Below, one piece after another: positions 11,482-45,657 of a DNA stretch of 64,000 nt (positions within the stretch are counted from its first letter, which is position 1; every line of letters starts with the position of its first letter). The notes below the pieces were generated by a model. It made no database searches. It saw only the letters and a list, made by a program, of their open reading frames with translations, and had not been told where the DNA came from. The translations under genes and the position numbers were made by a program. Source of the DNA: Solobacterium sp. UBA3303 (lineage in GTDB: Bacteria > Bacillota_I > Bacilli_A > Erysipelotrichales > Erysipelotrichaceae); assembly GCA_002362065.1 (NCBI GenBank), contig DESX01000013.1:1567-65566 (forward strand), read 5' to 3'.

Positions 11482-11485
11482 AAGA

Positions 11486-25326: not shown

Positions 25327-25351
25327 CTCTATAGGAACTCAAGGAGCTTAT

Positions 25352-26789: not shown

Positions 26790-26791
26790 AT

Positions 26792-29869: not shown

Positions 29870-29887
29870 ACGTTCTGTGCATGATTC

Positions 29888-30046: not shown

Positions 30047-30082
30047 TGTCTTGTATCTGTTTCTTTGACTGCAGCTCATTTC

Positions 30083-30116
30083 ACAGGCACCTTGGAAGAT
30101 GCCTGTTTTATTTTTG
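30083..30116 (+). terminator. intrinsic terminator about 215 nt after the operon's last stop codon
   Basis: acaggca/tgcctgt 7-bp stem with a 10-nt loop, then ttttattttt. Confidence 0.65.
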
Positions 30117-30278
30117 GCTTTTTAAGCGAACCGTAAGAAGAAAGCTACTTGTAACCATCAAAGAAGAGATGGTAATATTGAGATAGAGATGTATATATGA
30201 AAAGCAAAATGTATCCGATATGATAGAGGTCGTTTTTTATGTATGCAGATCCATTTTTTAGGAAAGAAGGAGAAAAAG

Positions 30279-31463: not shown

Positions 31464-31487
31464 TTTAATCGATCTGATGATATAAAA

Positions 31488-31511
31488 GAGAGGTGCTGCA
31501 AGGCACCTCTC
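31488..31511 (+). promoter_or_regulatory. intercistronic stem-loop after the binding-protein gene
   Basis: gagaggtgc/gcacctctc 9-bp stem with only a weak T tract. This is typical of partial termination or mRNA stabilisation that raises binding-protein expression over the membrane components. Confidence 0.45.
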
Positions 31512-31538
31512 TTCGCCTTTATTTGTGAAAGGATAGAT

Positions 31539-33077: not shown

Positions 33078-34198
33078 GCGTGAAGACGAAAAAGAAATTT
33101 GAGATCGCCAATTACACAGGCTTGTTGTCCTCTTTGATCGCCATCGTCGGCGGTCTGATCATTGCCTTCATAGTACTGATGGCGACCAATCCTTCCAAGG
33201 GCTTATCTGCCTTCGTCACGCTGATCACCGGCGGTTTCCAGCTTGGCGGCATGAAAAACCTTGGAACCCTGTTCTACTTTGCGACCCCGATCCTTTGTAC
33301 CGGCGTTGCGATGTGTCTGGCTTTCCAGGCCGGTATCTTCAATATCGGCGGACCTGGCCAGTATTCGGTCGGTGCTCTTGCAGCGATCTTAACATCTTTG
33401 TATTTTTCCAAGAACCTTCCGGCACCTTTGACCTGGATCGTACCGCTGATCGTTGCGACGTTCGCCGGTGCGGCCTGGGCATTCATTCCGGGCGTTTTAA
33501 AGGCATACTTCAACGTCAACGTGGTCATCGGTACCATCATGTTCAACTACATCGAAATGTACTACATGATGCACTGGATCAATGACTACTGCTACGATGC
33601 AATGAAAGGCCAGACCAGGGCCATCCCGGCGCAGTGCCGTCTGCCGCAGGCATTCATGCCTGCCATCACGCAGAACAAGACGGCAGATATCGGAATTTTG
33701 ATCGCGATCTTGTTTGCAGTACTTGCCTGGGTATTGATCGAGAAGACGAAACTCGGCTATGAACTGAAAGCCTGCGGCAAGAATGCCGAAGCTTCCCGCT
33801 ATGCCGGCATCCGTTCCAAGAGGAACATCATGATCTCGATCTTGCTGTCCGGTGCGCTTTGCGGCCTGGGCGGTGGTCTGACACACTTATCAGCTTCCGG
33901 AACCTACATCACGATGAAGGAACAGCTGGCGGCAGAAGGCTTCAATGGTATCGCAGTATGCTGTCTTGCCAACAACAATCCGCTCGGTGCGATCCTTGGT
34001 GCTTTGTTCCTTGCGTTCCTGACGGTCGGCGGCAACTACATGCAGATCTTCGGTTTCCAGAGAGAGATCGTTTCAGTTATCACATCCGTTATCATTTACT
34101 TCGCTGCATTCTCTTTGTTCCTGAAGCAGATCCTTGAGAGGCTTCTGATGAAACAGAAGACGCAGATCAATAAGGTCACGGGAGAGGAGCTCAAATAG
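33074..34198 (+). CDS. ABC transporter permease (BPD_transp_2 type)
   Basis: 374 aa, about 10 TM helices, ATGA overlap with the ATPase gene. Confidence 0.88.
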   Translation: MSVKTKKKFEIANYTGLLSSLIAIVGGLIIAFIVLMATNPSKGLSAFVTLITGGFQLGGMKNLGTLFYFATPILCTGVAMCLAFQAGIFNIGGPGQYSVGALAAILTSLYFSKNLPAPLTWIVPLIVATFAGAAWAFIPGVLKAYFNVNVVIGTIMFNYIEMYYMMHWINDYCYDAMKGQTRAIPAQCRLPQAFMPAITQNKTADIGILIAILFAVLAWVLIEKTKLGYELKACGKNAEASRYAGIRSKRNIMISILLSGALCGLGGGLTHLSASGTYITMKEQLAAEGFNGIAVCCLANNNPLGAILGALFLAFLTVGGNYMQIFGFQREIVSVITSVIIYFAAFSLFLKQILERLLMKQKTQINKVTGEELK

Positions 34199-34199
34199 T

Positions 34200-35156
34200 A
34201 TGGAAATGTTCTACTTTATCGCACGATATTTCATGTATTTCTTCATTCCGCTCCTGGTCGTCTCCATCAGCGGCATGTTCTCCGAGCGAAGCGGTGTCAT
34301 CCATATGGGTCTGGATTCCGTCATGGTCTGGTCCTGTATGTGGGGCGTCCTCTGTCTGCAATGGCTCGATGGCGTTGTAGCCGGTCAGCTGAGACTGATC
34401 ATCGCATTGCTGTTTGCCGGTGTCATGGGTGTCCTGCTGACGCTGTTATTGGCGTTTGCGGCCATCAACCTGAACGCCGATCAGACGATCGTCGGCATGG
34501 CGATGAATACCTTTGCGCCAGCCTTCTGTATCTTCTTTGCCAGAGTACTGCAGAATGGTTCGGAACATTTGTCGATCCGCAATGACTTCCTGATCGAAAG
34601 GATACCTGTCCTTGCCGATATACCAATCATCGGTCCGATGTTCTTTACAAGGACCTACATCACCAACTTCATCGGTATTGCGATCTTCATCATTTCGGCG
34701 ATCATCCTCAACAAGACCAGATTCGGTTTGAGAATGTGCGCGTGTGGTGAAAACCCGCAGGCAGCCGAATCCTTGGGTGTCAACGTACAGAAGTACAGAT
34801 ATGCCGCTTTGATCATCGCCGGCTTCATCGGCGGTATGGGCGGTCTGATGTACATCCTGCCGGTTGCGACCCACTACTCGCAGACCGTCGGCGGTTACGG
34901 TTATCTGGCAATGTCGGTTCTGATCTTTGGTCAGTGGCGTTCGATCCCGTTACTTGGTGCGGCAGCGTTCTTTGCTTTCTGCAAGACCATCGCCAACGCC
35001 TATTCCGGTATCCCGCTTTTAAACAACCTGGGTCTTCCGGCTGCGTTCTACAAGAGCCTTCCGTTCATCATCACTTTGATCGCTCTGGCGATCACGTCAA
35101 AGCACGACCACGCGCCAAAGGCGTCCGGTCAGCCTTACGACAAGTCGATGCGTTAA
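34200..35156 (+). CDS. ABC transporter permease (BPD_transp_2 type)
   Basis: 318 aa, polytopic, starts 1 nt after the upstream stop. Confidence 0.88.
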   Translation: MEMFYFIARYFMYFFIPLLVVSISGMFSERSGVIHMGLDSVMVWSCMWGVLCLQWLDGVVAGQLRLIIALLFAGVMGVLLTLLLAFAAINLNADQTIVGMAMNTFAPAFCIFFARVLQNGSEHLSIRNDFLIERIPVLADIPIIGPMFFTRTYITNFIGIAIFIISAIILNKTRFGLRMCACGENPQAAESLGVNVQKYRYAALIIAGFIGGMGGLMYILPVATHYSQTVGGYGYLAMSVLIFGQWRSIPLLGAAAFFAFCKTIANAYSGIPLLNNLGLPAAFYKSLPFIITLIALAITSKHDHAPKASGQPYDKSMR

Positions 35157-35172
35157 TATCTGTCCTTATAAG

Positions 35173-35203
35173 TTCAGCCGGAGCGAATCCGGCTGAATTT
35201 TTT
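35173..35203 (+). terminator. intrinsic terminator after nucleoside ABC operon
   Basis: ttcagccgga/tccggctgaa 10-bp stem, 5-nt loop, tttttt. Confidence 0.8.
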
Positions 35204-35225: not shown

Positions 35226-36044
35226 GTGAAAAAGTTTATTCTTTGTCTCATCATACTGGCTCTTTCCTTCCTCTTCTTTTTTCAGAAGCGGGCTTTTGTA
35301 CATGGGCCAGCCATCTTTTCCTGGCATGACGATGTACTGGATGAGAAAAAGGAAGTCCTTTTTTCCTTAATGAAGGACTACGGACTAAAGGAAGTTTATC
35401 AGTATTTTTCTTCCGGTCTGGAAAATGAAGAGATCCTCTCCTTTATCGAAGAATGCAAAAACAATCAGATCAGAGTCTTTGCTCTGCTGGGAGAGGCAAA
35501 CTGGGCCTTGCAGGAGGACGGGGCTTCTTTGATCAGGGCCATGGAGAGATTTGATGAACTTGAAATCGATGGCTTTGTGATCGATATCGAACCGCATCTG
35601 TTAAAGGATTTCAAGGAAGATGATCAAAGGATCATGGACTGCTTTGCATCCTGTCTGGAAAAGGGGAGAACTTATGCGAAAGAAAAAAACAAGGAATTCA
35701 TCGTCTGTCTTCCATACCATTTTGACCGCTACGAACAGCTTGAAAAGATCATCGATAAAGGCCTTGATACACTGGCGATCATGAATTATTACCGCAGGGA
35801 TGAGATCGCACATCTCGAAACGGAAGCATCCTTGTGTAAGAAATATAACAAGACTCTGATCACGATCTATGAGTTTCAGAAGGCCGGTACTTATGGGCTG
35901 GAAGAGATCAATACGTACCATATGGAAGGATTTGAATCTTTAAGAAGAAGCTATGAATTGATGCGCTTGCATTATAATAAAAATAGTTTTAATTTCGCGA
36001 TCCACGAGTTTGAATCGTTCAAAGAAGCTGAAGCATATGAATGA
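35226..36044 (+). CDS. membrane-anchored hypothetical protein with GH18-like DGxxxDxE motif
   Basis: N-terminal TM (KKFILCLIILALSFLFFF). DGFVIDIE at 35568-35591. Alternating pattern compatible with a TIM barrel. Start uncertain: GTG 35226 chosen, since TTG 35202 lies inside the terminator T-run. Confidence 0.45.
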   Translation: MKKFILCLIILALSFLFFFQKRAFVHGPAIFSWHDDVLDEKKEVLFSLMKDYGLKEVYQYFSSGLENEEILSFIEECKNNQIRVFALLGEANWALQEDGASLIRAMERFDELEIDGFVIDIEPHLLKDFKEDDQRIMDCFASCLEKGRTYAKEKNKEFIVCLPYHFDRYEQLEKIIDKGLDTLAIMNYYRRDEIAHLETEASLCKKYNKTLITIYEFQKAGTYGLEEINTYHMEGFESLRRSYELMRLHYNKNSFNFAIHEFESFKEAEAYE

Positions 36045-36732
36045 GGTATCCAGGCAGGAAAGAAAGTTTCTGATCACATTGGATCAGTATTATCGTTTTA
36101 AGGCGGATCTTGACAAGATCATGATCCCTGACGAACACAATCAGACGGATGGCTATTCGATCCGTTCTCTTTATTATGATTCCATCGATGACCGGGACTT
36201 CGAAGAAAAGGAAGAGGGCATCGAGCTAAGACGAAAGATCCGTTTAAGGAACTATGGTCCGGATACACCGTTTGCTCTGCTGGAGATGAAGCAGAAGGAA
36301 GGCTCCAACCAGAAGAAGCGTTCCCTTCGCTTGAGCAAAGAGGATGCATCGCTTTTATGCAAGGGCATCTATTCTCCGCTTTTGACAAGTGATGAGAAGT
36401 TTGGTCTTGAATGTTATGCATTAATGAATATGCACTGCTACCGGCCAAAGGCGATCGTGGAATACAAGCGTCAGGCATATATTGCCAAGGAAAACAGGAT
36501 CAGGGTGACCTTTGACCATCACATCATCGGCACGGAATCCAATTACGATGTCTTCGATGCGGATCTGCAGCAGTTTCCTCTGCTGGACCCGTATCTTGTG
36601 GTCATGGAAGTCAAATACAATGGCTTTTTGTTAAGCTATATCAAAGATATGTTAAGACAATGTGATCGAAGTGAACTGTCGGTAGGCAAATATGCCTTAT
36701 CGCGGACTTTGAGCAAGCATTTCAATTTTTAA
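36037..36732 (+). CDS. VTC-domain (polyphosphate polymerase / triphosphate-tunnel, CYTH-like) protein
   Basis: About 231 aa with no TM. Alternating charged beta-strand motifs ERKFLI, IRSLYYDS, RKIRLRNY, LEMKQKEG, RVTFD and VMEVKY are typical of tunnel metalloenzymes. ATG 36037 overlaps the upstream stop by 8 nt. Confidence 0.7.
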   Translation: MNEVSRQERKFLITLDQYYRFKADLDKIMIPDEHNQTDGYSIRSLYYDSIDDRDFEEKEEGIELRRKIRLRNYGPDTPFALLEMKQKEGSNQKKRSLRLSKEDASLLCKGIYSPLLTSDEKFGLECYALMNMHCYRPKAIVEYKRQAYIAKENRIRVTFDHHIIGTESNYDVFDADLQQFPLLDPYLVVMEVKYNGFLLSYIKDMLRQCDRSELSVGKYALSRTLSKHFNF

Positions 36733-36743: not shown

Positions 36744-37421
36744 ATGAGTACATTTATTTCGGAACTGATCAATGAAAGCGGCGTACTGACTTTGCAGGAG
36801 ATCGTGATGCATATCACTGCCTCAGCGATCTTAGGCTTTATCGTCTACCTGTCCTACTGGTATACCCATGCGGGAACCGCCTATTCCAAGAAATTCAACG
36901 TTTCCTTGCTGACACTGGCGATCCTGACCGGCACAGTCATGACCGTCATCGGCAACAACATCGTCCTTTCTTTAGGTATGGTCGGTGCACTTTCCATCGT
37001 ACGTTTCCGTACAGCGATCAAGGATTCAAGAGATACGACCTACATCTTCTGGGCGATCATCATCGGTATCTGCTGCGGTGTCGGTGACTACGTCGTTGCC
37101 GGTATCGGCTCAGCCGTGACGTTTATCATCCTGCTGCTGCTTGGAAGAGTACGCAATGAAAACAGGATCTTACTGATCATCCGTGCCTCCAAGGCAGACA
37201 GCTCCAAGATCGAAGAACTGGTCTTTTCCTATTTTGACAAGAGGGCACTACTTAGAGTCCGCAATACAACAAGAGATCATGTCGAGCTGATCTATGAAAT
37301 GCCTCGCAGCATCTGGCAGCTCAACTATAAGAAAGATACCGATATCGCTGACGCTTTATACGCTCTTGAAGGCGTGGAATACGTCAATACCGTCACACAG
37401 TCTGATGAGATAACGGGGTAA
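36744..37421 (+). CDS. DUF4956 integral membrane protein
   Basis: 225 aa, about 4 TM helices, with conserved LSIVRFRTAIKDSRDTTYIFWAIIIGICCGVG, then a soluble C-terminal domain of about 90 aa. Confidence 0.7.
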   Translation: MSTFISELINESGVLTLQEIVMHITASAILGFIVYLSYWYTHAGTAYSKKFNVSLLTLAILTGTVMTVIGNNIVLSLGMVGALSIVRFRTAIKDSRDTTYIFWAIIIGICCGVGDYVVAGIGSAVTFIILLLLGRVRNENRILLIIRASKADSSKIEELVFSYFDKRALLRVRNTTRDHVELIYEMPRSIWQLNYKKDTDIADALYALEGVEYVNTVTQSDEITG

Positions 37422-37424: not shown

Positions 37425-38945
37425 ATGTCGAAAGGCTCCCTGATCACGTTTGTCCTGGTCGCGGCAGTCTTAGGCTTTTCCTTCTTTTTTGAGCGAAGCG
37501 AAAACCTGATCGTCAGATCAAGACACGAACAGCACAAAGAATACGCATCCGTAAGCGATCTCGGTGAAGATCCTTTTAAGGATGCCTCTTTGTCTAGCCA
37601 CCTGCCGATCCTTGTGATCGAAACAGGCGGGCAGAAGATCCCGGGGGCTCCAGTCGCCAATGCGCTTGGACATCTCGACCACTACGAACTTTCCGATGAC
37701 GGCTCAGACCAGATCAAAGTGAAAGTATCCGAGATCTCCAAAAAAGATTCCTGGCACCACGACAGCGATGAAGCAGACAAGAGCTACGATGCTTTGTTTC
37801 GCATACGCGGCAACTCTTCACGCTGGTTTTCCAAAAAATCCTACCGTATCCGTCTTGTCGATGAAACCCTTCAGGATATCGATGCGCCATTCCTTGACAT
37901 GAAGGAAGGAAATCAATGGGCACTCTACGGACCATTCCTTGACAAGACTTTGATCCGCAATTACATGTGGATGAATATTGCCTCCAGGATCATGCCTGGC
38001 TACACGCCGGAAGTTCGTTTCTGCGAAGTTATGATCGATGGCGAATACCAGGGCGTTTATGTTCTGATGGAGATGATCGAAACGGGTGATGGCCGTGTCG
38101 ATCTGAGTGAATATGAACCGGGCGATCTGGCCATGAGCTATATGGTCAGGATCGAACCGCGCGTCAATCCGGAAAAACAGGTCGATAATTTCTCTTTCTA
38201 TACCTATCGCATGGAGACAGGAAGGAATGTTGAGATCATCTATCCGCCTTTGAAATACCAGGATGAGAGAGTCAAACGCTATGTCGAGACCGACCTTTCG
38301 GAAGTGGAACGCAAGATCTTCGGTGCGGAAACAGCCGATGGAAGCCATGCCTGGAAAGACGAGATCGATCTTGACAGCTTCATCAATTACTACATCATTG
38401 AAGAATTTTTAGGTATCAACGATACCTTCTCCGCTTCGACTTATTTTTACCGCGATGTCAGAGGAAAACTCTGCATCGGTCCGGTCTGGGATTTCAACAA
38501 CGCGCTTGACAACTTCTTCCAGCCGGTGCCGGACGATGATTTCATCCTTGCACAGAGAGGCTGGTTTGCCCAGATGATGAAGGACAAGGATTTCGTCGAA
38601 CGCGCCATACGCCGCTACAAACAGCTAAGAGAAGGCATCCTATCCGATGAAAACCTTTTGACATACATCAAAGAGACCGAAGACTACCTTGGTCCGGCGA
38701 TCGAAAGAAACTTCGAAGTCTGGGGCTACTCCTTTGACCCGGATAAGGTCACAAGCAGAGAGAGACGCAGTTTTATGGAGGGAGGCCTGGATGGCATCCA
38801 TACGCTGAATCCGGAAGATTATGCCGAGGCAAACGAGATGATGATCGATTATCTGCTAGATCATTCCCACTGGCTCGATGAAAACATCGATTCCTTACGC
38901 CAGTATTGTCATCCGTCCAAGTTCTCCGGACAGATCATTGAATAG
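37425..38945 (+). CDS. CotH-family atypical kinase, N-terminally membrane-anchored
   Basis: 506 aa. TM LITFVLVAAVLGFSFFF. CotH-like blocks YRIRLVDE, LYGPFLDKTLIRNYMWMNIA, EVMIDGEYQGVYVLMEMIE and GPVWDFNNA. Confidence 0.75.
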   Translation: MSKGSLITFVLVAAVLGFSFFFERSENLIVRSRHEQHKEYASVSDLGEDPFKDASLSSHLPILVIETGGQKIPGAPVANALGHLDHYELSDDGSDQIKVKVSEISKKDSWHHDSDEADKSYDALFRIRGNSSRWFSKKSYRIRLVDETLQDIDAPFLDMKEGNQWALYGPFLDKTLIRNYMWMNIASRIMPGYTPEVRFCEVMIDGEYQGVYVLMEMIETGDGRVDLSEYEPGDLAMSYMVRIEPRVNPEKQVDNFSFYTYRMETGRNVEIIYPPLKYQDERVKRYVETDLSEVERKIFGAETADGSHAWKDEIDLDSFINYYIIEEFLGINDTFSASTYFYRDVRGKLCIGPVWDFNNALDNFFQPVPDDDFILAQRGWFAQMMKDKDFVERAIRRYKQLREGILSDENLLTYIKETEDYLGPAIERNFEVWGYSFDPDKVTSRERRSFMEGGLDGIHTLNPEDYAEANEMMIDYLLDHSHWLDENIDSLRQYCHPSKFSGQIIE

Positions 38946-38950: not shown

Positions 38951-41023
38951 ATGAGACGATTCGTTGCGATATTGACAGTTTTGTTCCTGGTCATGGTGGG
39001 TTTCTACTATTCTTACTTCCATGCCGGATTCTATTTCGTAAGTGATGATCAGCCGATCAGCGCATTTTCCTATGCGGCAGGCAAAGAGATCTGCGTCAAT
39101 GAAGAAAAGACAGATATCCGCTGTGTCGATCTTTCCGCATCCCTGCCGGGGAAAAATTACATGGATTTCTCCATGAAAAAAGAAGATTATCTGGAGTGCT
39201 TTTCTCTGATCGAAGATTTAGGAGCCAACGCGGTCCGCGTCTCTTCGATCATGGATCAGGACTTCTACGATTCCTTTTTTGAGTACAACCAGACAAAAGG
39301 AAAGCTGTATTTGATACAGGGCATCTCCTTCAGTGATGCGATCCGAAAGAGTGTAAGGGATGGCTATGATTCCGGTCTTTACGATGAGCTTATCTCAACG
39401 GGAAAGACCGCCATCGATATCATTCACGGCAAAAGGGACATCTTCAATTTTGCCAGAGGCGAGTACGGTTTCTTCCGAAAGGACCTCTCAGATCTCGTAC
39501 TTGGCTTTGAACTGCTGGGCGGTTTTGATCCGGATATGGTCTCCTATACCGACCATCGTTTAGTCAAGGCTAAAACAAGCAGGCGAAATTACGTTTATCC
39601 GTCCGAAGACGCCTCCGTGTTTGAAACTCTGCTTTGTGATGCCATGGATGAGCTGTTCAGCTATGAAGGAAACAAGTATGGAACGCAAAGGCTCATCGGC
39701 GTGCAGATCGACAAGGGCACAGACCTCGTCCATTACGAAGAAGTCTACGAACGCCAGTTAAGCAAGTATGCCTACATCGATCCGCAGCATATCCAGACCA
39801 CTGAAACCAACAAAGCGGGATTCTATGTCGATTACCATCTTTCGATGACGATGATGGACCATGACATCGATCCTTCCACGCAGAAAGCCTACAAGGTACT
39901 TGAAGATCTGAATGAAAGCTACAGCTCCTATTGCGGAATGCTTGGAAGATACCATACGATGCCTTTGATCGCGACTTTCTCGGCCACGTCGGGCTTTCTT
40001 GCGGACAACGTCAATGATGAAGCCAATGATGAGACCATGCAGGGGCAGGAACTCGTCAATACATATAAGACCGTGAAAAACTGCGGTTTTGCCGGTGCAG
40101 CTGTCTCATCCTTGCAGGATATCTATTCGGCAAGCAGTTTCAATACCGCTTTCGCAACAGACACGTCCAACGCCTATTTATGGCACGAACTCTTGTCCGA
40201 AGGACAGAACTCCGGCCTGGTCGCTTTTGAAGCGGAGAGCTCACATTTTGCGGATGGCGATGGAAGCGAATGGAAGGCCGAAGATCTTGTGATCGACGCC
40301 GAAAAGAAAGTCTATCTTTCTTATGATTATGAAGGTCTCCATATCTTTGTCAAAGACGCAAAGGAAAGCGATCTGCTCTACCTTCCTATTGATACAAATG
40401 ACAGCCTTGGTGCAAGGAAAGCCAATGTCTGTCCGTTTGGCTTTGACCGGGCTGCCGACTTCATTTTGAAGATCCATGGAACAGATGATACGATCCTCTA
40501 TGTTCAGGAAAGACAGGATGCGACAAGAGAAAACTTCCGCTACGAGATGGAAGGTGAGAACGCCTTCAGCGATGTTCCGGAGGCGGATACCAATCAGTTC
40601 GTGATCGTCAATTTTGCTTTGAACAATCCTTATCTCACCGACAAGATCGATCCGCAAAGCCGTGCCTTGCAAAGACTGGGCAAACAGGAAGCCGGAAGGC
40701 TCATCCGCGGTAATGGCAACCCATATGATGCGAATTATGATTCTTTGAGCAGTTTCTGCTTTGGTGAAGATGGGGTTGAAGTATTGATCCCATGGCTGAT
40801 GTTAAATGTCGGGGATCCTTGCAACATGCGGATCCATCAGGACTACTATCGTAATTACGGTGTCGATTTCAAGAAGATCGACAAGATCTATATCGGCCTG
40901 AGCAGTGATGCAAGAGTCATTGAACTCAAACCATTCAGTGTCAAAGGCTGGGGCGATGTGAAATATGTGATGCGGACGAAGAAGAGCTATGAAGTTTTAG
41001 GAAATGTCTGGAGGGCTGAATAG
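38951..41023 (+). CDS. large membrane-anchored hypothetical protein (possible glycoside-hydrolase-like N-terminal domain)
   Basis: 690 aa. N-terminal TM FVAILTVLFLVMVGFYY. LIEDLGANAVRVSSIMDQDFYD resembles TIM-barrel glycosidase openings. No confident family. Confidence 0.35.
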   Translation: MRRFVAILTVLFLVMVGFYYSYFHAGFYFVSDDQPISAFSYAAGKEICVNEEKTDIRCVDLSASLPGKNYMDFSMKKEDYLECFSLIEDLGANAVRVSSIMDQDFYDSFFEYNQTKGKLYLIQGISFSDAIRKSVRDGYDSGLYDELISTGKTAIDIIHGKRDIFNFARGEYGFFRKDLSDLVLGFELLGGFDPDMVSYTDHRLVKAKTSRRNYVYPSEDASVFETLLCDAMDELFSYEGNKYGTQRLIGVQIDKGTDLVHYEEVYERQLSKYAYIDPQHIQTTETNKAGFYVDYHLSMTMMDHDIDPSTQKAYKVLEDLNESYSSYCGMLGRYHTMPLIATFSATSGFLADNVNDEANDETMQGQELVNTYKTVKNCGFAGAAVSSLQDIYSASSFNTAFATDTSNAYLWHELLSEGQNSGLVAFEAESSHFADGDGSEWKAEDLVIDAEKKVYLSYDYEGLHIFVKDAKESDLLYLPIDTNDSLGARKANVCPFGFDRAADFILKIHGTDDTILYVQERQDATRENFRYEMEGENAFSDVPEADTNQFVIVNFALNNPYLTDKIDPQSRALQRLGKQEAGRLIRGNGNPYDANYDSLSSFCFGEDGVEVLIPWLMLNVGDPCNMRIHQDYYRNYGVDFKKIDKIYIGLSSDARVIELKPFSVKGWGDVKYVMRTKKSYEVLGNVWRAE

Positions 41024-42088
41024 ATGCGGATAATCATTGAGGGTGTGATCTATTTCTATCTGTTCATTTGTGCGGCACTTCTTCTTTTCAATGTGATCTA
41101 CATCTACCGGCAGACACAGAAAGAGAAAAACAAGGAAAAACGGATCGAAAGCTGGAAACAGAAACTGAAAAAAGACAAACAGAATACGATCCTGGATGAT
41201 AAGACCGTTGAAAAACTCAAGGATGCACAGCATCTGACTGGTCTTTACAATGCGATGGACGCAGTGCTCAAAGACAAGAAGAAACGTCTGACCTTCTACA
41301 AGAAGAACATGGCCGCTTTTCAGAAGCTGGCTCTGGAATATGAAAAACATAATGCCATGGAGAAGGCCTTCTTTGCCTATGTGCTGGCTTCCTTCGAATT
41401 CGACGGTACCGCAAACGAGGGCATCATGTCGCAGATCATGCTGCAGTGCTTTGAAGATTCAACGATCTACTGCAGAGAGAATCTTTTACACGCTTTGTAT
41501 GCGTTAGGAAAGAGCCAGGCGATCGAACATGGCTTTGCCTTGCTCAATGAGAATGACTGGTATCATTCGCCAAAGCTGATCGCGGATGGATTATTGAAAT
41601 ACAGGGGCGATCAGAAGGAACTGTGCGAACGCTTGTGGCGTCACCACGATGAATGGCGCGATTATCTTTTAGTCGGTGTCGTTCAATACGCCTCCATGTG
41701 CAAGGATGATTTCTTCAACGATGAACTGTTAAAAGATCTGCAGGACAAGGATACGCAGGATGAAGTCCGTTTTGCGATCATCCGTTATTTCATGCACCAC
41801 AAGGATGAAAAGATCCTGCCGCTTCTTTTAAGCTATGCCAGGGAAGAAGGGACCGATGACCGCTTTGCGATCCCGGCCTGTCTGAGCCTGCAGTCTTATC
41901 CTTGTGAAGAAAGCATCGATGCCCTGTGTCAGGCGATGCATTCAAGAAACTGGTATGTGCGTAAAAATGCTGTGATCTCTTTATATAAACTCAAAGCCGA
42001 CAAAAAAGCCTCCGAAAATCTGGGGGATGACCGTTATGCAAGAGAGATGTTTGAATATGTCGGCGCATCTTTGAAGGAGGCCGCATGA
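41024..42088 (+). CDS. membrane-anchored HEAT/ARM-like repeat protein
   Basis: 354 aa. N-terminal TM, lysine-rich linker, then helical repeats (LLHALYALGKSQAIEHGFALL, IDALCQAMHSRNWYVRKNAVISLYKL). The ATG directly follows the upstream TAG. Confidence 0.45.
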   Translation: MRIIIEGVIYFYLFICAALLLFNVIYIYRQTQKEKNKEKRIESWKQKLKKDKQNTILDDKTVEKLKDAQHLTGLYNAMDAVLKDKKKRLTFYKKNMAAFQKLALEYEKHNAMEKAFFAYVLASFEFDGTANEGIMSQIMLQCFEDSTIYCRENLLHALYALGKSQAIEHGFALLNENDWYHSPKLIADGLLKYRGDQKELCERLWRHHDEWRDYLLVGVVQYASMCKDDFFNDELLKDLQDKDTQDEVRFAIIRYFMHHKDEKILPLLLSYAREEGTDDRFAIPACLSLQSYPCEESIDALCQAMHSRNWYVRKNAVISLYKLKADKKASENLGDDRYAREMFEYVGASLKEAA

Positions 42089-43488
42089 GCACAATGGTCA
42101 ATGCGATCCTGAAATTCGGTCAGGTCTTCTTCCTGATCTATCTGATGATCTATGCGTCCTATCTTTTCCTTTCGGTCGCGGTCGGTGCCAACAAGCTCTA
42201 TAAGGAAGACCATCGCCGCAGCATCAAGAACGAACTCAAACACGATTACTATTTCCCGGTATCGATCTTAGTACCGGCCTATAACGAGGAAGTCACGATC
42301 ATCGAAAGTGTGGAATCTTTGCTGAGCCTTGATTACCGGCTTTATGAAGTCATCGTCGTCGATGACGGATCCAAGGATGATACCGCAAAAGTTCTGATCG
42401 ATCACTTCCATATGCACAAGGTCTCCAAGCCGATCCGCATTGCCGTACCTTGTAAGCCGATCCTGGAGGTCTATGAGGCTCCGGGCACCAAAAAGAAACT
42501 GACGCTGATCCGCAAAGTAAACGGCGGAAAGGGCGATGCCTTAAATGTAGGCATCAACGCTTCCCAGTATCCGTATTTTGTCTGTATCGATGCAGACTCG
42601 ATGCTGCAGACCGACTCTTTGACCCGTATCATTCAGCCGGCCATGGAAGATGATGATATCGTGGCTGTCGGCGGACTGATCCGTGTGGCACAGTGTGTCC
42701 GTTTTGACGGCGACAAGGTCTCATACCACCTCTCTGACAATTTCTTAGCTTCCATGCAGGTCATGGAATACGACCGTTCCTTCCTGGCTTCAAGGATCTT
42801 ACTGGATGGATTCAACGGCAACCTGATCATTTCCGGTGCCTTTGGCCTGTTCAAGAAGGATGTCGTCATTGCGGCGGGCGGTTATGCCAACAACACGCTG
42901 GGTGAAGATATGGAACTCGTCGCAAAGCTGCACGTCTTCTGCCGCAACAATAATATGCGCTATTCGATCCGCTATGAACCGAATGCCATCTGCTGGTCGC
43001 AGGCTCCTGCTTCTTTAGGCGATCTGATGAAACAGAGACGAAGATGGCACCTGGGTCTGTTCCAGTGCATGACCAGATACGGCTTCATGTTTGGCAAACT
43101 GCGCTATGGACTGGTCGGAACCGTCTCGTATTTCTACTATCTGATGTATGAGCTGTATTCGCCGTTCATCGAAGTCTTCGGTTTATTCGTGACTTTGCTG
43201 GCATTATTCAATGGCCAGCTCAATATACCGTTCCTGATCCGTTTCCATCTTCTGTTTGCGATCTACGGTTCGATCTTAACGATCACCGCATTCTTCCAGA
43301 GGATCTATACGCAAAACCTGAAGATCTCACGAAGCGACCTGTACCGGGCCATACTGATGTGTTTTATTGAAAACATCTTCTTCCGTTTCGTTCTCGATTA
43401 TGTGCGTTTCAATGCCTTTTTAGGCTATGGCAAAAACAAGAACAACTGGGGCTCGATCAAGCGTTTCAAACACTCGGAGGCAAAATAA
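42085..43488 (+). CDS. processive family-2 glycosyltransferase (polysaccharide synthase)
   Basis: 467 aa. VVVDDGSKDDT, DADS, GEDMEL and QRRRW (43033-43047). One or two N-terminal and about 4 C-terminal TM helices. No PilZ domain. ATGA overlap with the upstream gene. Confidence 0.85.
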   Translation: MSTMVNAILKFGQVFFLIYLMIYASYLFLSVAVGANKLYKEDHRRSIKNELKHDYYFPVSILVPAYNEEVTIIESVESLLSLDYRLYEVIVVDDGSKDDTAKVLIDHFHMHKVSKPIRIAVPCKPILEVYEAPGTKKKLTLIRKVNGGKGDALNVGINASQYPYFVCIDADSMLQTDSLTRIIQPAMEDDDIVAVGGLIRVAQCVRFDGDKVSYHLSDNFLASMQVMEYDRSFLASRILLDGFNGNLIISGAFGLFKKDVVIAAGGYANNTLGEDMELVAKLHVFCRNNNMRYSIRYEPNAICWSQAPASLGDLMKQRRRWHLGLFQCMTRYGFMFGKLRYGLVGTVSYFYYLMYELYSPFIEVFGLFVTLLALFNGQLNIPFLIRFHLLFAIYGSILTITAFFQRIYTQNLKISRSDLYRAILMCFIENIFFRFVLDYVRFNAFLGYGKNKNNWGSIKRFKHSEAK

Positions 43489-43494: not shown

Positions 43495-44253
43495 ATGAAA
43501 AAGAAAAAATTCTCATTCCTCAAACTGATCCTGGGCATACTCGTGGTCTTTTTGCTGTTGTGTGCAGGCGGTGTTTTTTACATCTATCAGAAAGTCAATG
43601 ACATCGGAAAATACAAGGATGAATTATCCTATGATTATCAATCGAAGATGGCTGAAAACGAAGGGAAGACCTTTGAAGACTTCATCTTCTACGATAAAGA
43701 GGCGATGGTCTTTGAATATAAAGTTCCTGCCTATTTTCTCTATGAGATCATCAATGAAGAGTCGATGGCTGAAATACTTGCCCTTCCTGAAGAACTTGAG
43801 ATCGCCGATGTCGGCGTGAAGCTGATGTTTGAAGAAAAGGAAGCTGACATCTATCTTTCCTTGAAATACCGCAATCTGATCAACACCTGTCTTGTTATTA
43901 AAACGGATATGCGTCTGAAAGAAGATCAGAGCGCTGTACAGCTTCTTTACAGAGATCTCTTTGTGATCGATGAGGAAGTCAGTGAATACGTCAGACAGAA
44001 CGTCCTGATGGAAAAGGGCACATTGTTATTTGAACACAAGTTCCCTGTCCATGTGCCATACTACAGAATGCCGGATTATCGCCCTGCTTTCATCCATGAT
44101 CTGGATTTTGACAAGGAATACATATACGCAAAATATGATATTGCCTCGGCAATGAAGGAATACCTTGCCCAGACGGAATATAACGAAGATTCCTTTGAAG
44201 AATGCATGGAGAAGGTGTACCTCGAAGTGCGTATGAACGGGATCGCCCATTGA
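43495..44253 (+). CDS. membrane-anchored hypothetical protein
   Basis: 252 aa. N-terminal KKKK plus TM (LKLILGILVVFLLLCAGGVFYIY) and an acidic extracytoplasmic domain. No recognisable family. Confidence 0.4.
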   Translation: MKKKKFSFLKLILGILVVFLLLCAGGVFYIYQKVNDIGKYKDELSYDYQSKMAENEGKTFEDFIFYDKEAMVFEYKVPAYFLYEIINEESMAEILALPEELEIADVGVKLMFEEKEADIYLSLKYRNLINTCLVIKTDMRLKEDQSAVQLLYRDLFVIDEEVSEYVRQNVLMEKGTLLFEHKFPVHVPYYRMPDYRPAFIHDLDFDKEYIYAKYDIASAMKEYLAQTEYNEDSFEECMEKVYLEVRMNGIAH

Positions 44254-44288
44254 ATGTATAATAGAATCGTTAAGAGGAGAATTACTGT

Positions 44289-44801
44289 ATGAAAACTTTG
44301 ATCGCTTATTTCTCGCATATCGGCGAAAATCTTCAGAACAATGAGATCGTTGAACTGAAGAAAGGCAATACGGAAGTCGTTGCAGAAAAACTGCAGCAGC
44401 TCACAGGCGGTGATCTTTACAAGATCGAGGAAGAAGAAGCATATCCTTACAAATATGACGACTGCTTAAGAAGAGCGAGAAGGGAAGATGAAAACAATGA
44501 GCACCCTGCTTTAAAGGGCGGTGTCAAACTGAATATGGACGACTACGATGAAGTCTACATCGGTTTCCCGATCTGGTATCGCACATACCCGAGAGCCGTC
44601 GCAACATTCTTAGGAATGTATGATTTTTCCGGCAAGACCGTTTATCCGTTCTGCACCAATGATGAAGGAACGTTCGGCATTTCTTTATTGGAGATGCAGG
44701 GAAGCATCAAAGGCGCTGAGATCTGCGATGGACTTGCAATCCGCGGTGTCGATGTGAACAATTCCGATGCCCGCATCCGGGCATATGTAGGTCTCTTATG
44801 A
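44289..44801 (+). CDS. flavodoxin-family protein
   Basis: 170 aa. N-terminal LIAYFSHIGEN and FPIWYRTYP pattern seen in short flavodoxin-like proteins. Confidence 0.7.
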   Translation: MKTLIAYFSHIGENLQNNEIVELKKGNTEVVAEKLQQLTGGDLYKIEEEEAYPYKYDDCLRRARREDENNEHPALKGGVKLNMDDYDEVYIGFPIWYRTYPRAVATFLGMYDFSGKTVYPFCTNDEGTFGISLLEMQGSIKGAEICDGLAIRGVDVNNSDARIRAYVGLL

Positions 44802-45637
44802 GAAGAAAAGACGCAGTCTTACTGAACGATCCCGATCCGTTTCATTCGATCGTTCCCTATGTGATGCCAAAGCGCACGGAAGCGGAAGTTTCCACGACCT
44901 GCACCTTTGATATTACGGATCTTCTTTCGATGATCAAGAAGGACAACGAAGAAAAGGGGACCAACTACAAGCTGTTTCATTGCATCTGCACGGCCATCGG
45001 CAAGACGATCTATCATCGTCCGAAGATGAACATCTTCATCGCCGGCCGCAAGTTCTGGCAAAGGAATGACATTACCCTGTCTTTCGTTGCCAAGCAGAGG
45101 TTCGCCGATGAGGCGGAAGAGACGCTGATGACCCTCAAGGTCAAAGAGGACATGGATCTTGATCAGATCTCAAAGATCATCCTGGGCGATGTGAAAAAGG
45201 CAAGAAGTGCCGGCACCAATTCTCTGGACAAGACGATGGAGATCGTCGGCAAGCTGCCGCGTTTCGTTCTGGAGATCTTCTTCTGGATACTCAGCCGCAT
45301 GGAATACCATGGCGTCTATCCGCAGGACCTTGCCAAAGGCGATCCGAATTATACGACCTGCCTGCTTTCAAACCTTGGTTCGATCGGTGCGGATTCCTGT
45401 TATCACCATCTGTCCAACTTCGGTACCAATTCGATGATGGGCACGATCGGTACGATCTATCAGGATGACAAGGGAAGAGACAAAGTCGAGATGACGATCA
45501 CGCTCGATGAAAGGATCGCGGACGGTTTCTATTTCGCAAGATCCCTGAAACTCTTGAAGTACCTTATGGAACATCCGCAGCTTCTGAAAGAAAAGATCGC
45601 CGATCCGATCCCGGAAGAGATCATGAAGAGTTTATAA
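44798..45637 (+). CDS. 2-oxoacid dehydrogenase E2 / CAT-fold acyltransferase-like protein lacking the catalytic His
   Basis: 279 aa. Catalytic-domain-like layout ending in LDERIADG (45506-45526) where E2 enzymes have DHRxxDG. ATGA overlap with the flavodoxin gene. Confidence 0.55.
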   Translation: MRRKDAVLLNDPDPFHSIVPYVMPKRTEAEVSTTCTFDITDLLSMIKKDNEEKGTNYKLFHCICTAIGKTIYHRPKMNIFIAGRKFWQRNDITLSFVAKQRFADEAEETLMTLKVKEDMDLDQISKIILGDVKKARSAGTNSLDKTMEIVGKLPRFVLEIFFWILSRMEYHGVYPQDLAKGDPNYTTCLLSNLGSIGADSCYHHLSNFGTNSMMGTIGTIYQDDKGRDKVEMTITLDERIADGFYFARSLKLLKYLMEHPQLLKEKIADPIPEEIMKSL

Positions 45638-45657
45638 GCCGCTGCTGCGGCTTTTTT
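45636..45657 (+). terminator. intrinsic terminator closing the ten-gene operon
   Basis: aagccgc-tgct-gcggctt followed by tttt. It overlaps the stop codon. Confidence 0.8.

What the first reader, a model, noticed from the sequence alone, without database searches (positions are those of the whole stretch)
37425..38945. Extracytoplasmic CotH-family kinase in a non-spore-coat context, next to a glycan synthase
CotH is an atypical kinase first described for Bacillus spore-coat protein phosphorylation. It is structurally related to the secretory-pathway Fam20 kinases, one of which (Fam20B) phosphorylates a sugar.

This copy has an N-terminal TM anchor, so the kinase domain is predicted to sit outside the cytoplasm. 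It is embedded between a putative phospho-polymer module and a polysaccharide synthase, and I see no sporulation genes nearby. This raises two testable ideas:
- its substrate is a glycan or envelope protein rather than a coat protein;
- its phosphoryl donor outside the cell could be supplied by the neighbouring VTC/DUF4956 pair.
Basis: partly seen in the sequence, partly recalled or inferred. Interest (0 to 1): 0.65.

Follow-up and report, generated by a model that had tools for sequence, protein, structure and literature searches.

The report
Exported CotH kinase in polysaccharide operon
This gene encodes a membrane-anchored, probably outward-facing CotH-type kinase that always travels with two polyphosphate-related genes inside a widely conserved exopolysaccharide-synthesis operon, so it most likely adds phosphate to a secreted sugar polymer or its export machinery rather than to spore coats; the gene association is already published, but the mechanism is unknown.

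Summary
ORF 37425-38945 is a CotH-family kinase (Pfam E=5e-52; best structural match B. cereus CotH). It has an N-terminal signal-anchor, and both catalytic aspartates (D333, D356) are invariant.

It lies in a tight operon: small TIM-barrel-like protein, VTC polyphosphate-polymerase-like, DUF4956, CotH, 690-aa glycoside-hydrolase-fold protein, HEAT-repeat membrane protein, processive GT2 synthase. All 80 related genome loci keep this order where the contig allows. A Planococcus plasmid has it too, and by gene order and sizes it matches C. perfringens NELoc-2.

The CotH/VTC/DUF4956 triad also occurs:
- alone in Deinococcus and Nonomuraea;
- inside a heteropolysaccharide locus in Pseudobutyrivibrio;
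- per the literature, next to Gram-positive pel operons, where S. intermedius deletions alter Pel levels.

No sporulation genes are in the window.

Best reading (inferred, about 0.45): a trans-membrane phosphate module modifies the exopolysaccharide or its apparatus, with the phosphoryl donor supplied through VTC/DUF4956. The gene association is not new (Whitfield 2020; mBio 2025; Lepp 2010). New here are the non-Pel synthase context and the breadth of the triad. Interest is moderate: real and mechanistically open, but biochemistry is untested.

The parts
35170..35200 (+). Intrinsic-terminator-like hairpin (13-bp stem plus T run) that ends the upstream Bmp/ABC transporter unit and marks the 5' boundary of the operon
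   Evidence: sequence
35226..36044 (+). g272/g280: membrane-anchored protein with no Pfam family. It is probably a small TIM-barrel glycoside-hydrolase-like protein. It is an optional cassette member, present in 28/80 related loci and on the Planococcus plasmid.
   Evidence: start used by gene callers; weak profile hit to the 275-aa 'putative GH97' 10yv, E=0.013; invariant D120-x-E122
36037..36732 (+). VTC-domain protein (triphosphate-tunnel, polyphosphate-polymerase-like), 231 aa, with no TM segment or signal peptide, so cytoplasmic
   Evidence: Pfam PF09359 E=1.1e-41 covering profile 2-230/235. About 20 invariant basic and acidic residues across 14 homologues. No TM segment.
36744..37421 (+). 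DUF4956 membrane protein: an MgtC-like multi-pass TM region (about residues 20-135) plus a C-terminal soluble domain. It is the most conserved cassette protein (up to 88% identity).
   Evidence: Pfam PF16316 E=1e-12, MgtC E=4e-5; TM segments; conservation. The S. intermedius homologue is described as 4 TM plus a cytoplasmic ACT domain (PMC12345266).
37425..38945 (+). CotH-family atypical kinase, 506 aa.
- Signal-anchor at residues 4-22.
- Juxtamembrane R33/Q36/H37 motif.
- N-terminal beta domain at about residues 56-125.
- Kinase core at residues 126-483.
- Glycine-rich-loop-like RGNSSR (128-133) and K137.
- Catalytic D333 (codon at 38421).
- Metal-binding D356 (codon at 38490).
38951..41023 (+). 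p690: N-in/C-out anchored protein with a clan GH-A (beta/alpha)8 barrel plus C-terminal beta-sandwich domains. It has no Pfam family. The canonical nucleophile Glu is not conserved.
   Evidence: AlphaFold pLDDT 83. Foldseek matches GH157 endo-beta-1,3-glucanase at E=3e-11, plus GH2 and GH5. Residue analysis. Charge flanks.
41024..42088 (+). HEAT-repeat protein with one N-terminal TM segment followed by a strongly basic stretch, so the repeat domain is predicted to be cytoplasmic. Probably a scaffold or regulatory partner of the synthase.
   Evidence: Pfam HEAT_2 E=5e-10; sequence; conserved in 73/80 loci
42085..43488 (+). Membrane-integrated processive GT2 synthase (PgaC/IcaA-, chitin- and cellulose-synthase-like) with DDG93, DAD169, GED273 and QRRRW317 motifs
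   Evidence: Pfam and NCBIfam (PgaC_IcaA E=7e-44 but below the equivalog cut-off); BcsA similarity over residues 16-404; motifs
43495..45637 (+). Species-specific tail of the transcription unit: a 252-aa anchored protein, a flavodoxin, and a 279-aa protein with weak similarity to the 2-oxoacid dehydrogenase acyltransferase catalytic domain. None is conserved in other species' cassettes.
   Evidence: (no hits in the 80 loci)
45636..45653 (+). Terminator-like hairpin that ends the unit

Best explanation
The gene encodes the kinase subunit of a conserved three-part phosphate module: a cytoplasmic VTC/TTM polyphosphate-polymerase-like enzyme, the DUF4956 membrane protein, and an exported CotH kinase. 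This module is built into a synthase-dependent exopolysaccharide cassette made of a processive GT2 synthase, a HEAT-repeat membrane partner, and one or two glycoside-hydrolase-fold proteins.

Shown by computation:
- CotH family membership and fold.
- Intact catalytic aspartates.
- An export-type N-terminus.
- Operon structure.
- Strict co-occurrence of the triad, and conservation of the cassette across many species and on a plasmid.
- Absence of a sporulation context.

Inferred: the kinase domain sits on the outer face of the membrane, where ATP is scarce. VTC makes polyphosphate (or another condensed phosphate) from cytoplasmic ATP. DUF4956 passes it across the membrane. CotH uses it to phosphorylate the nascent polysaccharide or an exposed component of the secretion apparatus. 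This would change the polymer's charge, retention or amount.
For: - Family and fold: Pfam E=5e-52; Foldseek top hits 5JDA/5JD9.
- Active site: D333 and D356 are invariant in 18 diverse homologues. Two independent methods align them to B. cereus D224/D247, with the same 23-residue spacing as B. subtilis D228/D251. The N-lobe motif RGxxxRxFxKKSY aligns with 92% hhalign probability.
- Export: across 117 homologues the N-flank has net charge +2 with no acidic residues, and acidic residues follow the TM segment directly. The Deinococcus triad CotH has a classic Sec signal peptide. The S. intermedius homologue is described as secreted (PMC12345266).
- Cytoplasm / membrane / outside layout: VTC has no TM segment and DUF4956 is multi-pass.
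- Linkage: the order VTC-DUF4956-CotH-p690-HEAT-GT2 is kept in all 80 loci wherever the contig is long enough. Intergenic gaps range from -8 to 11 nt.
- The triad recurs in four contexts: a Planococcus plasmid (full cassette), Deinococcus (alone), Pseudobutyrivibrio (inside a GT61/GT2/GT4/acyl- and pyruvyl-transferase locus), and Nonomuraea.
- Literature: the triad sits next to Gram-positive pel operons (PMC7112168). Deleting the S. intermedius CotH and DUF4956 genes changes Pel level and halves aggregation (PMC12345266).
- Biofilm-polysaccharide role: 28/80 loci are flanked by GGDEF/EAL genes on the same strand.
- Transcription: low-depth metatranscriptome contigs from ruminant gut cover several of the operon's genes.
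Against: - No biochemical evidence exists for any step.
- Topology is only predicted. Counting K/R alone gives 1 on the N side against 3 on the C side in this protein.
- No member of the CotH family is known to use polyphosphate or to act on a sugar.
- DUF4956 has no detected homology to the yeast VTC channel domain.
- In S. intermedius, deleting the VTC-domain gene (SIR_1593) gave no reported phenotype, and the other two deletions had opposite effects on Pel amount. That fits a regulatory role at least as well as a decorating role.
- VTC-DUF4956 pairs also exist without CotH (Acetoanaerobium), so the pair has a function of its own.
- The RNA evidence is thin, and DNA carry-over cannot be excluded.
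Confidence: 0.45

Rival explanations
1. CotH is a regulatory Ser/Thr protein kinase. It phosphorylates exposed parts of the synthase apparatus (p690, g272, synthase loops) or itself, and so tunes polymer output. It uses ATP from the environment or from lysed cells. VTC/DUF4956 affect phosphate or polyphosphate homeostasis independently.
For: - The only characterised CotH enzymes are protein kinases (PMC7821199).
- Whitfield et al. proposed exactly this role for pel-linked CotH (PMC7112168).
- The S. intermedius mutants change the amount of Pel rather than abolishing it, and in opposite directions.
- Streptococcal pel loci lack c-di-GMP control, so another regulator is expected.
Against: - It does not explain why VTC and DUF4956 are kept next to CotH in every context, including loci with no glycan genes.
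- 28/80 cassette loci already carry c-di-GMP enzymes.
- No Ser/Lys/Arg-rich CotB/CotG-like substrate is encoded in the operon.
- Extracellular ATP supply is unexplained.
Confidence: 0.25
2. VTC/DUF4956 export polyphosphate as a matrix polyanion in its own right, for example to cross-link a cationic polymer or bind metals. CotH is mainly a binding or anchoring protein, or it handles the polyphosphate chain (transfer, capping or length control) rather than phosphorylating glycan hydroxyls.
For: - VTC-DUF4956 occur without CotH in Acetoanaerobium, next to a PLD-type phosphotransferase.
- Pel, one partner polymer, is cationic (own knowledge).
- Fungal CotH proteins act as surface ligands (own knowledge; papers listed).
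- VTC-linked CotHs replace the catalytic-loop Asn with Ser/Thr and gain a basic residue at position 348. This hints at a donor or ligand different from Mg-ATP.
Against: - Both catalytic aspartates, the Gly-rich-loop motif and K137 are invariant, which argues for catalysis.
- No deacetylase that would make a cationic polymer is present in this cassette.
Confidence: 0.17
3. The kinase domain is cytoplasmic (N-out/C-in anchor). It phosphorylates the cytoplasmic HEAT-repeat protein or the synthase, using ordinary ATP.
For: - In this protein the 15 residues after the TM segment hold 3 K/R against 1 before it.
- The N-tail is only 3 residues long and could flip.
- ATP supply would need no special explanation.
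Against: - Across 117 homologues the N-flank is +2 with no acidic residues, while the C-flank has net charge about 0 with D/E directly after the TM segment.
- The Deinococcus homologue has a cleavable-type signal peptide.
- The S. intermedius homologue is reported as secreted.
- Many CotH relatives are fused to extracellular domains (PMC8250860).
Confidence: 0.1
4. It is the orthologue of the Bacillus spore-coat kinase, acting on coat proteins in a sporulating host.
For: - Same Pfam family.
- Many host lineages of the cassette (Oscillospiraceae, Lachnospiraceae) include spore formers.
Against: - Only about 14% identity to B. cereus CotH.
- It has a signal-anchor and is in an operon with a polysaccharide synthase.
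- There are no sporulation genes in the 64 kb window.
- The same cassette is in Planococcus, Dubosiella and a Coriobacteriaceae MAG.
- The B. cereus cotH neighbourhood has no VTC or DUF4956 gene.
Confidence: 0.02

Closest known systems
Accessory genes of Gram-positive pel operons: cotH / polyphosphate polymerase / DUF4956 / DUF4832 (Whitfield et al. 2020, PMC7112168; S. intermedius SIR_1591-1594, mBio 2025, PMC12345266)
   Same: - The same three families (CotH predicted secreted, VTC-type polyP-polymerase domain, DUF4956 = MgtC-like TM plus cytoplasmic domain) are contiguous with a synthase-dependent exopolysaccharide operon.
- They are accompanied by an anchored TIM-barrel glycoside hydrolase.
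- The context is non-sporulation.
   Different: - The partner here is not Pel. There is no PelF (GT4), PelG, PelD or PelA deacetylase. Instead there is a membrane GT2 with QxxRW plus a HEAT-repeat protein.
- This CotH has no FN3 domain and is anchored rather than released.
- The hydrolase-fold protein is 690 aa with no DUF4832 Pfam hit.
- The 2025 paper states that the three-gene synteny was not found outside Pel loci. Searches show that it is.
Clostridium perfringens NELoc-2 genes CP4_0460-CP4_0468 (Lepp et al. 2010, PMC2879425)
   Same: Same gene order and near-identical product sizes. NELoc-2 has VTC 232 aa, a 226-aa membrane protein (mis-named tubulin/FtsZ), CotH 497, hypothetical 685, HEAT 377 and a 'chitin synthase' GT 466. 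The window has 231, 225, 506, 690, 354 and 467.
   Different: - NELoc-2 has the VTC/membrane pair duplicated around a resolvase, and a sigma factor upstream.
- Homology is judged from the published table only; I could not fetch the sequences.
- That paper annotated the genes individually and did not treat them as one polysaccharide system.
Bacillus subtilis / B. cereus CotH spore-coat kinase (PDB 5JD9/5JDA; Nguyen et al. 2016; Freitas et al. 2020, PMC7821199)
   Same: - Same Pfam family and the same atypical kinase fold.
- Catalytic Asp and metal-binding Asp are conserved, 23 residues apart.
- N-lobe RGxxxRxFxKKSY and LIRN motifs are conserved.
   Different: - About 14% identity.
- About 120 extra N-terminal residues, comprising the anchor and a beta domain.
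- An insertion at about residues 219-280.
- Ser338/Thr339 in place of the His-Asn of the catalytic loop.
- Exported rather than mother-cell cytoplasmic.
- No CotG/CotB-type substrates nearby.
Fam20 secretory-pathway kinases (Fam20C, and Fam20B xylose kinase)
   Same: Works like, if the hypothesis is right: a signal-anchored atypical kinase that acts on secreted substrates outside the cytosol. Fam20B sets the precedent for a sugar acceptor (own knowledge).
   Different: - No sequence or fold-search evidence of membership. There was no Fam20 Pfam hit, and the fold hits after CotH were PI3K/PI4K.
- Fam20 enzymes use ATP imported into the Golgi lumen. No such ATP pool exists outside a Gram-positive cell.
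Yeast VTC complex (Vtc4 polyphosphate polymerase coupled to a membrane channel)
   Same: The VTC/TTM catalytic domain matches at full length (Pfam E=1e-41), and it is genetically paired with a multi-pass membrane protein. This suggests coupled synthesis and translocation.
   Different: - The catalytic domain is a free-standing 231-aa protein.
- There is no SPX domain.
- The membrane partner is DUF4956 (MgtC-like), not the DUF202-type VTC transmembrane domain.
- Polyphosphate synthesis is untested.

Membership tests
CotH kinase family (PF08757) | Full-length match to the family profile above the curated threshold | tested here: met
   177.8 bits against a cut-off of 23.8, E=5.2e-52, profile positions 2-321 of 322
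CotH kinase family (PF08757) | Atypical protein-kinase-like fold of B. cereus CotH | tested here: met
   Foldseek top two PDB hits are 5JDA/5JD9, E=2.3e-12, TM 0.68 normalised to the target. The model has pLDDT 72.
CotH kinase family (PF08757) | Catalytic Asp (B. subtilis D228) and metal-binding Asp (D251) | tested here: met
   D333 and D356 are invariant. Global hhalign and MAFFT --add both align them to B. cereus D224/D247. The spacing is 23 residues in all three proteins. The residue roles come from PMC7821199. The B. cereus sequence was read from a frameshifted gene in L081. The local C-lobe alignment is not significant on its own.
CotH kinase family (PF08757) | Phosphotransferase activity | not testable with these tools
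   Needs an enzyme assay
Spore-coat CotH orthologue | Cytoplasmic (mother-cell) protein in a sporulation gene context (cotG/cotB partners) | tested here: not met
   The protein has a signal-anchor. About 55 window ORFs contain no sporulation genes. The cassette is present in non-sporulating taxa.
pel-associated cotH/PPP/DUF4956 accessory set | Contiguous CotH, VTC-type polyP-polymerase domain and DUF4956 genes | tested here: met
pel-associated cotH/PPP/DUF4956 accessory set | Contiguity with pelDEADAFG (PelF GT4, PelG, PelD, PelE, PelA deacetylase) | tested here: not met
   There are no Pel families in Pfam or NCBIfam scans of any operon protein. The synthase is a GT2.
Synthase-dependent exopolysaccharide system | Membrane-embedded processive GT2 with D, DxD, (T/G)ED and QxxRW motifs | tested here: met
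   DDG93, DAD169, GED273 and QRRRW317, with 4 or more TM segments. BcsA match over residues 16-404, E=1e-7.
Synthase-dependent exopolysaccharide system | Extracytoplasmic glycoside hydrolase dedicated to the polymer | tested here: inconclusive
   p690 has a clan GH-A barrel fold, but the expected nucleophile Glu is absent in the window protein and in most cassette homologues. g272 gives only a weak TIM-barrel hit.
Synthase-dependent exopolysaccharide system | c-di-GMP control | tested here: inconclusive
   There are no GGDEF, EAL or PilZ genes in the window. GGDEF/EAL genes flank the cassette in 28/80 related loci. No receptor was identified.
PNAG synthase PgaC/IcaA (TIGR03937) | Score above the equivalog cut-off | tested here: not met
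   150 bits against a cut-off of 422. There is no PgaB/IcaB-type deacetylase in the operon.
VTC polyphosphate polymerase | Complete VTC/TTM tunnel domain | tested here: met
   PF09359 E=1.1e-41, profile positions 2-230 of 235. Invariant basic and acidic tunnel-type residues.
VTC polyphosphate polymerase | Fused or associated VTC (DUF202) transmembrane channel and SPX domain | tested here: not met
   The protein has 231 aa and no TM segment. Its neighbour is DUF4956, MgtC-like.
Fam20-type secretory kinases | Sequence or fold membership | tested here: not met
   No Fam20 Pfam hit and no Fam20 structure among the top 50 fold matches

The most novel reading that the evidence does not exclude
The triad is a trans-membrane phosphoryl relay.
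- A free-standing bacterial VTC enzyme polymerises phosphate from cytoplasmic ATP.
- DUF4956 threads the chain outward.
- The exported CotH kinase uses polyphosphate, not ATP, to phosphorylate (or polyphosphorylate) a nascent exopolysaccharide.

If true, this would be three firsts: a bacterial counterpart of the yeast VTC synthase-translocase, a polyphosphate-driven kinase of the protein-kinase-like fold, and a glycan kinase in the CotH family. It would also answer how a kinase can work outside a cell that has no extracellular ATP pool.
Probability: 0.15. Interest if true: 0.85.

Novelty: new variant of a known kind. Interest (0 to 1): 0.55.

Why it matters
Extracellular CotH-domain proteins are very common: 11,144 clusters at 50% identity match this one at E<=1e-3. 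Only the Bacillus spore-coat enzyme has a known substrate.

This cassette and its relatives sit in many gut Clostridia, in a C. perfringens locus associated with necrotic enteritis, and next to pel operons that drive streptococcal aggregation. Knowing what the CotH/VTC/DUF4956 module does would explain a recurrent feature of Gram-positive biofilm-matrix loci.

The strict pairing of an exported kinase with a cytoplasmic polyphosphate-polymerase-like enzyme and a membrane protein gives a concrete, testable answer to where an extracellular kinase gets its phosphoryl donor.

Cultured carriers are available for experiments: Anaerotignum lactatifermentans DSM 14214, Dubosiella muris, Neglectibacter timonensis, Alitiscatomonas aceti, and Planococcus maritimus XJ11 (plasmid-borne).

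Tried and rejected
- phmmer of the CotH protein against PDB sequences found nothing relevant.
- A profile of 18 homologues reached 5JD9 only through the N-lobe (E=3.5e-4).
- A profile of residues 300-400 alone found nothing. The C-lobe mapping therefore rests on global alignments and spacing.
- My third large protein search, seeded with an 87-aa 5JD9 fragment, returned only truncated proteins. I recovered most of a B. cereus cotH from a frameshifted long-read assembly instead.
- The primary CotH structure paper (PMC4922149) is not held. Residue roles therefore come from Freitas et al. 2020.
- The VTC protein and a VTC profile gave no significant PDB sequence match, so Vtc4 catalytic residues could not be mapped one-to-one.
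- A p690 profile against PDB sequences gave only noise, namely RNase H at E about 0.2. Only the fold search was informative.
- NCBIfam gave no family for CotH, VTC, p690, g272 or p252.
- The exact window CotH protein is not in the contig index. A 99% identical one is, in gut metagenomes.
- Rejected: Pel membership, PgaC equivalence and spore-coat orthology. See the membership tests.
- I did not use the metagenome scan or the viral collection, because the genome and plasmid collections answered the context question.
Full report
**1. Observation**

The ORF 37425..38945 (+) exists exactly as described and encodes 506 aa.

- Family: it matches Pfam CotH (PF08757) end to end, at E=5.2e-52 and 177.8 bits against a gathering score of 23.8.
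- Fold: an AlphaFold2 model built on 18 homologues has mean pLDDT 72 and pTM 0.76. Its two best PDB matches are the B. cereus CotH kinase structures 5JDA and 5JD9, at Foldseek E=2.3e-12 and TM 0.68 on the target. PI3K/PI4K lipid kinases follow, and no Fam20 entry is in the top 50.
- Anchor: residues 4-22 are a single hydrophobic segment.

The feature is real and far beyond chance.

**2. Catalytic residues**

B. subtilis CotH is inactivated by D228Q and D251A (Freitas et al. 2020, PMC7821199).

Direct sequence searches barely connect this protein to Bacillus CotH. I therefore recovered a B. cereus cotH from a frameshifted assembly (L081) and aligned it to a profile of this protein's family.

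- N-lobe: it aligns with 92% hhalign probability. RGNSSRWFSKKSY matches RGAHIREFEKKSY, LIRN matches LIRN, and QGVY matches QGVY.
- C-lobe: global hhalign and MAFFT --add both place D333 on B. cereus D224 and D356 (in PVWD) on D247 (in IPWD).
- Spacing: the 23-residue spacing equals that of B. subtilis D228/D251. The 4-residue offset matches the difference in protein length, which I give from my own knowledge.
- Conservation: D333, D356, R128, G129, N130, S131, S132, R133, K137, R178 and N179 are invariant in 18 homologues at 47-63% identity. The corresponding positions are kept, in places with conservative changes, in the distant triad-linked CotHs of Planococcus, Deinococcus and Pseudobutyrivibrio.

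One difference stands out. Where B. cereus has DGFVHN (Asp+5 = Asn, as in the canonical kinase catalytic loop), all four VTC-linked CotHs have Ser-Thr or Ser-Leu. They also carry a basic residue at position 348. The enzyme therefore looks catalytically competent, with a modified catalytic loop.

**3. Topology**

In 117 full-length homologues, the flank before the TM segment averages +2 with essentially no acidic residues (typically MRR or MRK). The flank after it has about two basic and two acidic residues, usually with D/E right after the helix. This is the layout of a Sec signal-anchor with the C-terminus outside.

- Supporting evidence: the Deinococcus triad CotH has a textbook cleavable-type signal peptide. 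The S. intermedius homologue is described as secreted (PMC12345266).
- Caveat: a bare K/R count for this particular protein (1 before, 3 after) is ambiguous. I treat the outward orientation as probable, not shown.
- Other operon proteins: VTC has no TM segment. DUF4956 is multi-pass. p690 (RR before the helix, DD after it) is predicted N-in/C-out. The HEAT protein has a very basic stretch after its helix, so its repeats should be cytoplasmic.

**4. The operon**

A strong terminator-like hairpin at 35170-35200 ends the upstream Bmp/ABC transporter genes, and another lies at 45636-45653. The genes between them are packed with gaps of -8 to +35 nt:

- g272: anchored, with a weak small-TIM-barrel signal.
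- VTC: PF09359, E=1e-41.
- DUF4956: PF16316, with weak MgtC similarity.
- CotH.
- p690: no Pfam family. A confident model (pLDDT 83) shows a clan GH-A barrel plus beta-sandwich domains. The best match is a GH157 endo-beta-1,3-glucanase at E=3e-11, followed by GH2 and GH5.
- A HEAT-repeat membrane protein.
- A GT2 synthase with the DDG, DAD, GED and QRRRW motifs of processive beta-glycan synthases. It resembles BcsA over 390 residues.
- A species-specific tail: p252, a flavodoxin and p279.

The synthase scores far below the PgaC/IcaA equivalog cut-off, and no deacetylase is present, so the polymer cannot be named.

p690 lacks the Glu of the 'AEFG' nucleophile motif that more distant homologues keep. 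It may be a binding module, or it may use a different mechanism.

**5. Conservation**

A profile scan of one genome per species returned 263 relatives. I examined the 80 closest loci.

- Every locus has the order VTC-DUF4956-CotH-p690-HEAT-GT2 wherever the contig extends far enough. Counts are CotH 80, DUF4956 77, p690 77, VTC 75, HEAT 73 and GT2 71. g272 is present in 28 and p252 in none.
- Hosts are mostly gut Clostridia (Oscillospiraceae, Lachnospiraceae, Anaerotignum, Neglectibacter). They also include Erysipelotrichaceae (Dubosiella, plus the closest locus, a goat-jejunum MAG at 62% CotH, 88% DUF4956 and 87% GT2 identity) and a Coriobacteriaceae MAG.
- Cytoplasmic and membrane components are far more conserved than the predicted exported ones. 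This fits the predicted topology.
- In 28 of the 80 loci, a GGDEF gene sits just upstream and/or EAL genes sit just downstream on the same strand. This is a hallmark of biofilm exopolysaccharide systems. The window has none.
- The window sequence itself comes from ruminant gut metagenomes.
- Low-depth metatranscriptome contigs cover parts of DUF4956, CotH, p690, HEAT, GT2 and p252. This is weak evidence of expression.

**6. The triad beyond this cassette**

tblastn against annotated plasmid records showed five contexts:

- (a) The complete cassette on a Planococcus maritimus plasmid.
- (b) CotH-VTC-DUF4956 alone, with no glycan genes, on a Deinococcus taeanensis replicon.
- (c) The triad inside a heteropolysaccharide locus with GT61, GT2, GT4, acyltransferases and pyruvyl transferases on a Pseudobutyrivibrio plasmid.
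- (d) VTC-DUF4956-CotH in Nonomuraea.
- (e) One VTC-DUF4956 pair without CotH, followed by a PLD/cardiolipin-synthase-like gene, in Acetoanaerobium.

So CotH of this clade is always found with VTC and DUF4956. The triad attaches to at least three different kinds of surface-glycan pathway. The VTC/DUF4956 pair can also work without CotH.

**7. What was already known**

- Lepp et al. 2010 (PMC2879425) listed C. perfringens NELoc-2 genes with the same order and sizes.
- Whitfield et al. 2020 (PMC7112168) described cotH, a polyphosphate polymerase, DUF4956 and DUF4832 as an accessory group contiguous with pel operons in streptococci, clostridia and bifidobacteria. They suggested a regulatory kinase role.
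- The 2025 S. intermedius study (PMC12345266) showed three things. The DUF4832 protein is an active glycoside hydrolase. Deleting the DUF4956 and CotH genes changes Pel level (up and down respectively) and more than halves aggregation in sputum medium. The VTC-gene deletion had no reported phenotype.
- That study says the three-gene synteny was not found outside Pel loci. My results show otherwise. It does not discuss phosphorylation of the polymer: the stem 'phosphorylat' has zero occurrences.

**8. Mechanism**

Shown by computation: family, fold, intact active site, operon structure, strict genetic linkage, and the non-sporulation context.

Inferred: an exported kinase has no ATP pool, so its obligate partners are the natural source of a donor.

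- A complete VTC tunnel domain is, in yeast, a polyphosphate polymerase that feeds its product through a membrane channel (own knowledge).
- Here it is a soluble protein paired with a highly conserved multi-pass membrane protein.
- I therefore favour, at about 0.45, a module that carries phosphate from cytoplasmic ATP to the outer face, where CotH transfers it to the polymer or to an exposed apparatus component.
- The recurrence of the triad among glycan-decorating enzymes (acyl- and pyruvyl-transferases) in Pseudobutyrivibrio tips me towards a glycan acceptor. Nothing here tests that.

Rivals, detailed in their own sections:

- a regulatory protein kinase;
- polyphosphate export as a matrix component, with CotH handling or binding it;
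- a cytoplasmic orientation;
- spore-coat orthology, which is effectively excluded.

**9. Verdict**

It is a new variant of a known kind: the published CotH/VTC/DUF4956 module, here joined to a GT2/HEAT synthase cassette rather than to Pel. Interest is 0.55. The full polyphosphate-relay and glycan-kinase reading has roughly 0.15 probability and would be of high interest if true.

Noticed in passing
L008, L018, L025-L031, L039, L041, L067, L074 and others (28 of 80 loci); for example L008:16242-20250 and L029:17030-20872: GGDEF and/or EAL (c-di-GMP turnover) genes flank the cassette on the same strand in about a third of species. The GGDEF gene takes the slot where g272 sits in other loci, and EAL genes lie just after the GT2. 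The window's copy has none.
   Followed up: partly
window 38951-41023 (p690), residues ~183-192 and ~339-345: The fold is a clan GH-A glycoside-hydrolase barrel. The nucleophile Glu of the 'AEFG' motif, kept in distant homologues P0135-P0138, is replaced in the window ('ATFS') and in most cassette homologues ('AAGFG'). The window and its closest relative also lack the 'GxEW' Glu. The protein may be non-catalytic or may use substrate-assisted chemistry.
   Followed up: partly
window 37521-37535 (CotH residues 33-37): A juxtamembrane R-x-x-Q-H motif ('RYHQH' in most homologues) is invariant in the membrane-anchored cassette CotHs, including the Planococcus one. It is absent from the signal-peptide CotH of Deinococcus. 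It may be a docking or metal/phosphate-binding site next to the membrane.
   Followed up: no
window 38436-38441 and 38466-38468 (CotH S338, T339, K348): VTC-linked CotHs carry Ser-Thr where B. cereus CotH has His-Asn (the Asp+5 Asn of the kinase catalytic loop). They also have a conserved basic residue before the metal-binding Asp. This is compatible with a donor other than Mg-ATP, but it rests on an alignment with a single Bacillus sequence.
   Followed up: partly
L090 (Acetoanaerobium noterae NZ_CP154629) 5920-9042: A VTC-DUF4956 pair without CotH is followed by a PLD/cardiolipin-synthase-like gene and preceded by a two-component system. P-type cation ATPases lie on both sides. The pair therefore has partners other than CotH.
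   Followed up: partly
L082 (Planococcus maritimus plasmid NZ_CP059541) 4470-12824: The whole seven-gene cassette is plasmid-borne in a non-sporulating member of the Bacillales. This indicates horizontal mobility and offers a tractable aerobic host for experiments.
   Followed up: partly
window 43495-45637: Three further genes lie between the GT2 and the terminator: a 252-aa anchored protein, a flavodoxin, and a 279-aa protein with weak similarity to the 2-oxoacid dehydrogenase acyltransferase catalytic domain. They appear only in this species' version of the operon, and their role is unknown.
   Followed up: partly
window 24186-35156: A nucleoside-salvage island lies immediately upstream. It holds an inosine-uridine nucleoside hydrolase, an amidohydrolase, three tandem PNP_UDP_1 phosphorylase paralogues (26792-29227), and a Bmp-type binding protein with its ABC transporter. 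A second nucleoside hydrolase is at 60575-61549.
   Followed up: no
window 8340-12597: A complete arginine deiminase pathway cluster (arginine deiminase, ornithine carbamoyltransferase, carbamate-kinase-type amino-acid kinase) sits next to an ArgZ-like arginine dihydrolase C-terminal-domain gene on the opposite strand.
   Followed up: no
window 51420-54471: The listed methionyl-tRNA synthetase ORF (51420-53393) and the IF-2B-family ORF (53188-54471, TTG start) overlap by about 200 nt. The second gene probably starts further downstream than the mechanical ORF call.
   Followed up: no
L081 2501-3558 (B. cereus-group assembly, ENA ERZ1330323): cotH is split into three ORFs by frameshifts in a long-read assembly. 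These are most likely sequencing indels rather than a real pseudogene. The neighbours (histidine phosphatase, Nudix, polysaccharide synthesis protein) include no VTC or DUF4956 gene.
   Followed up: partly
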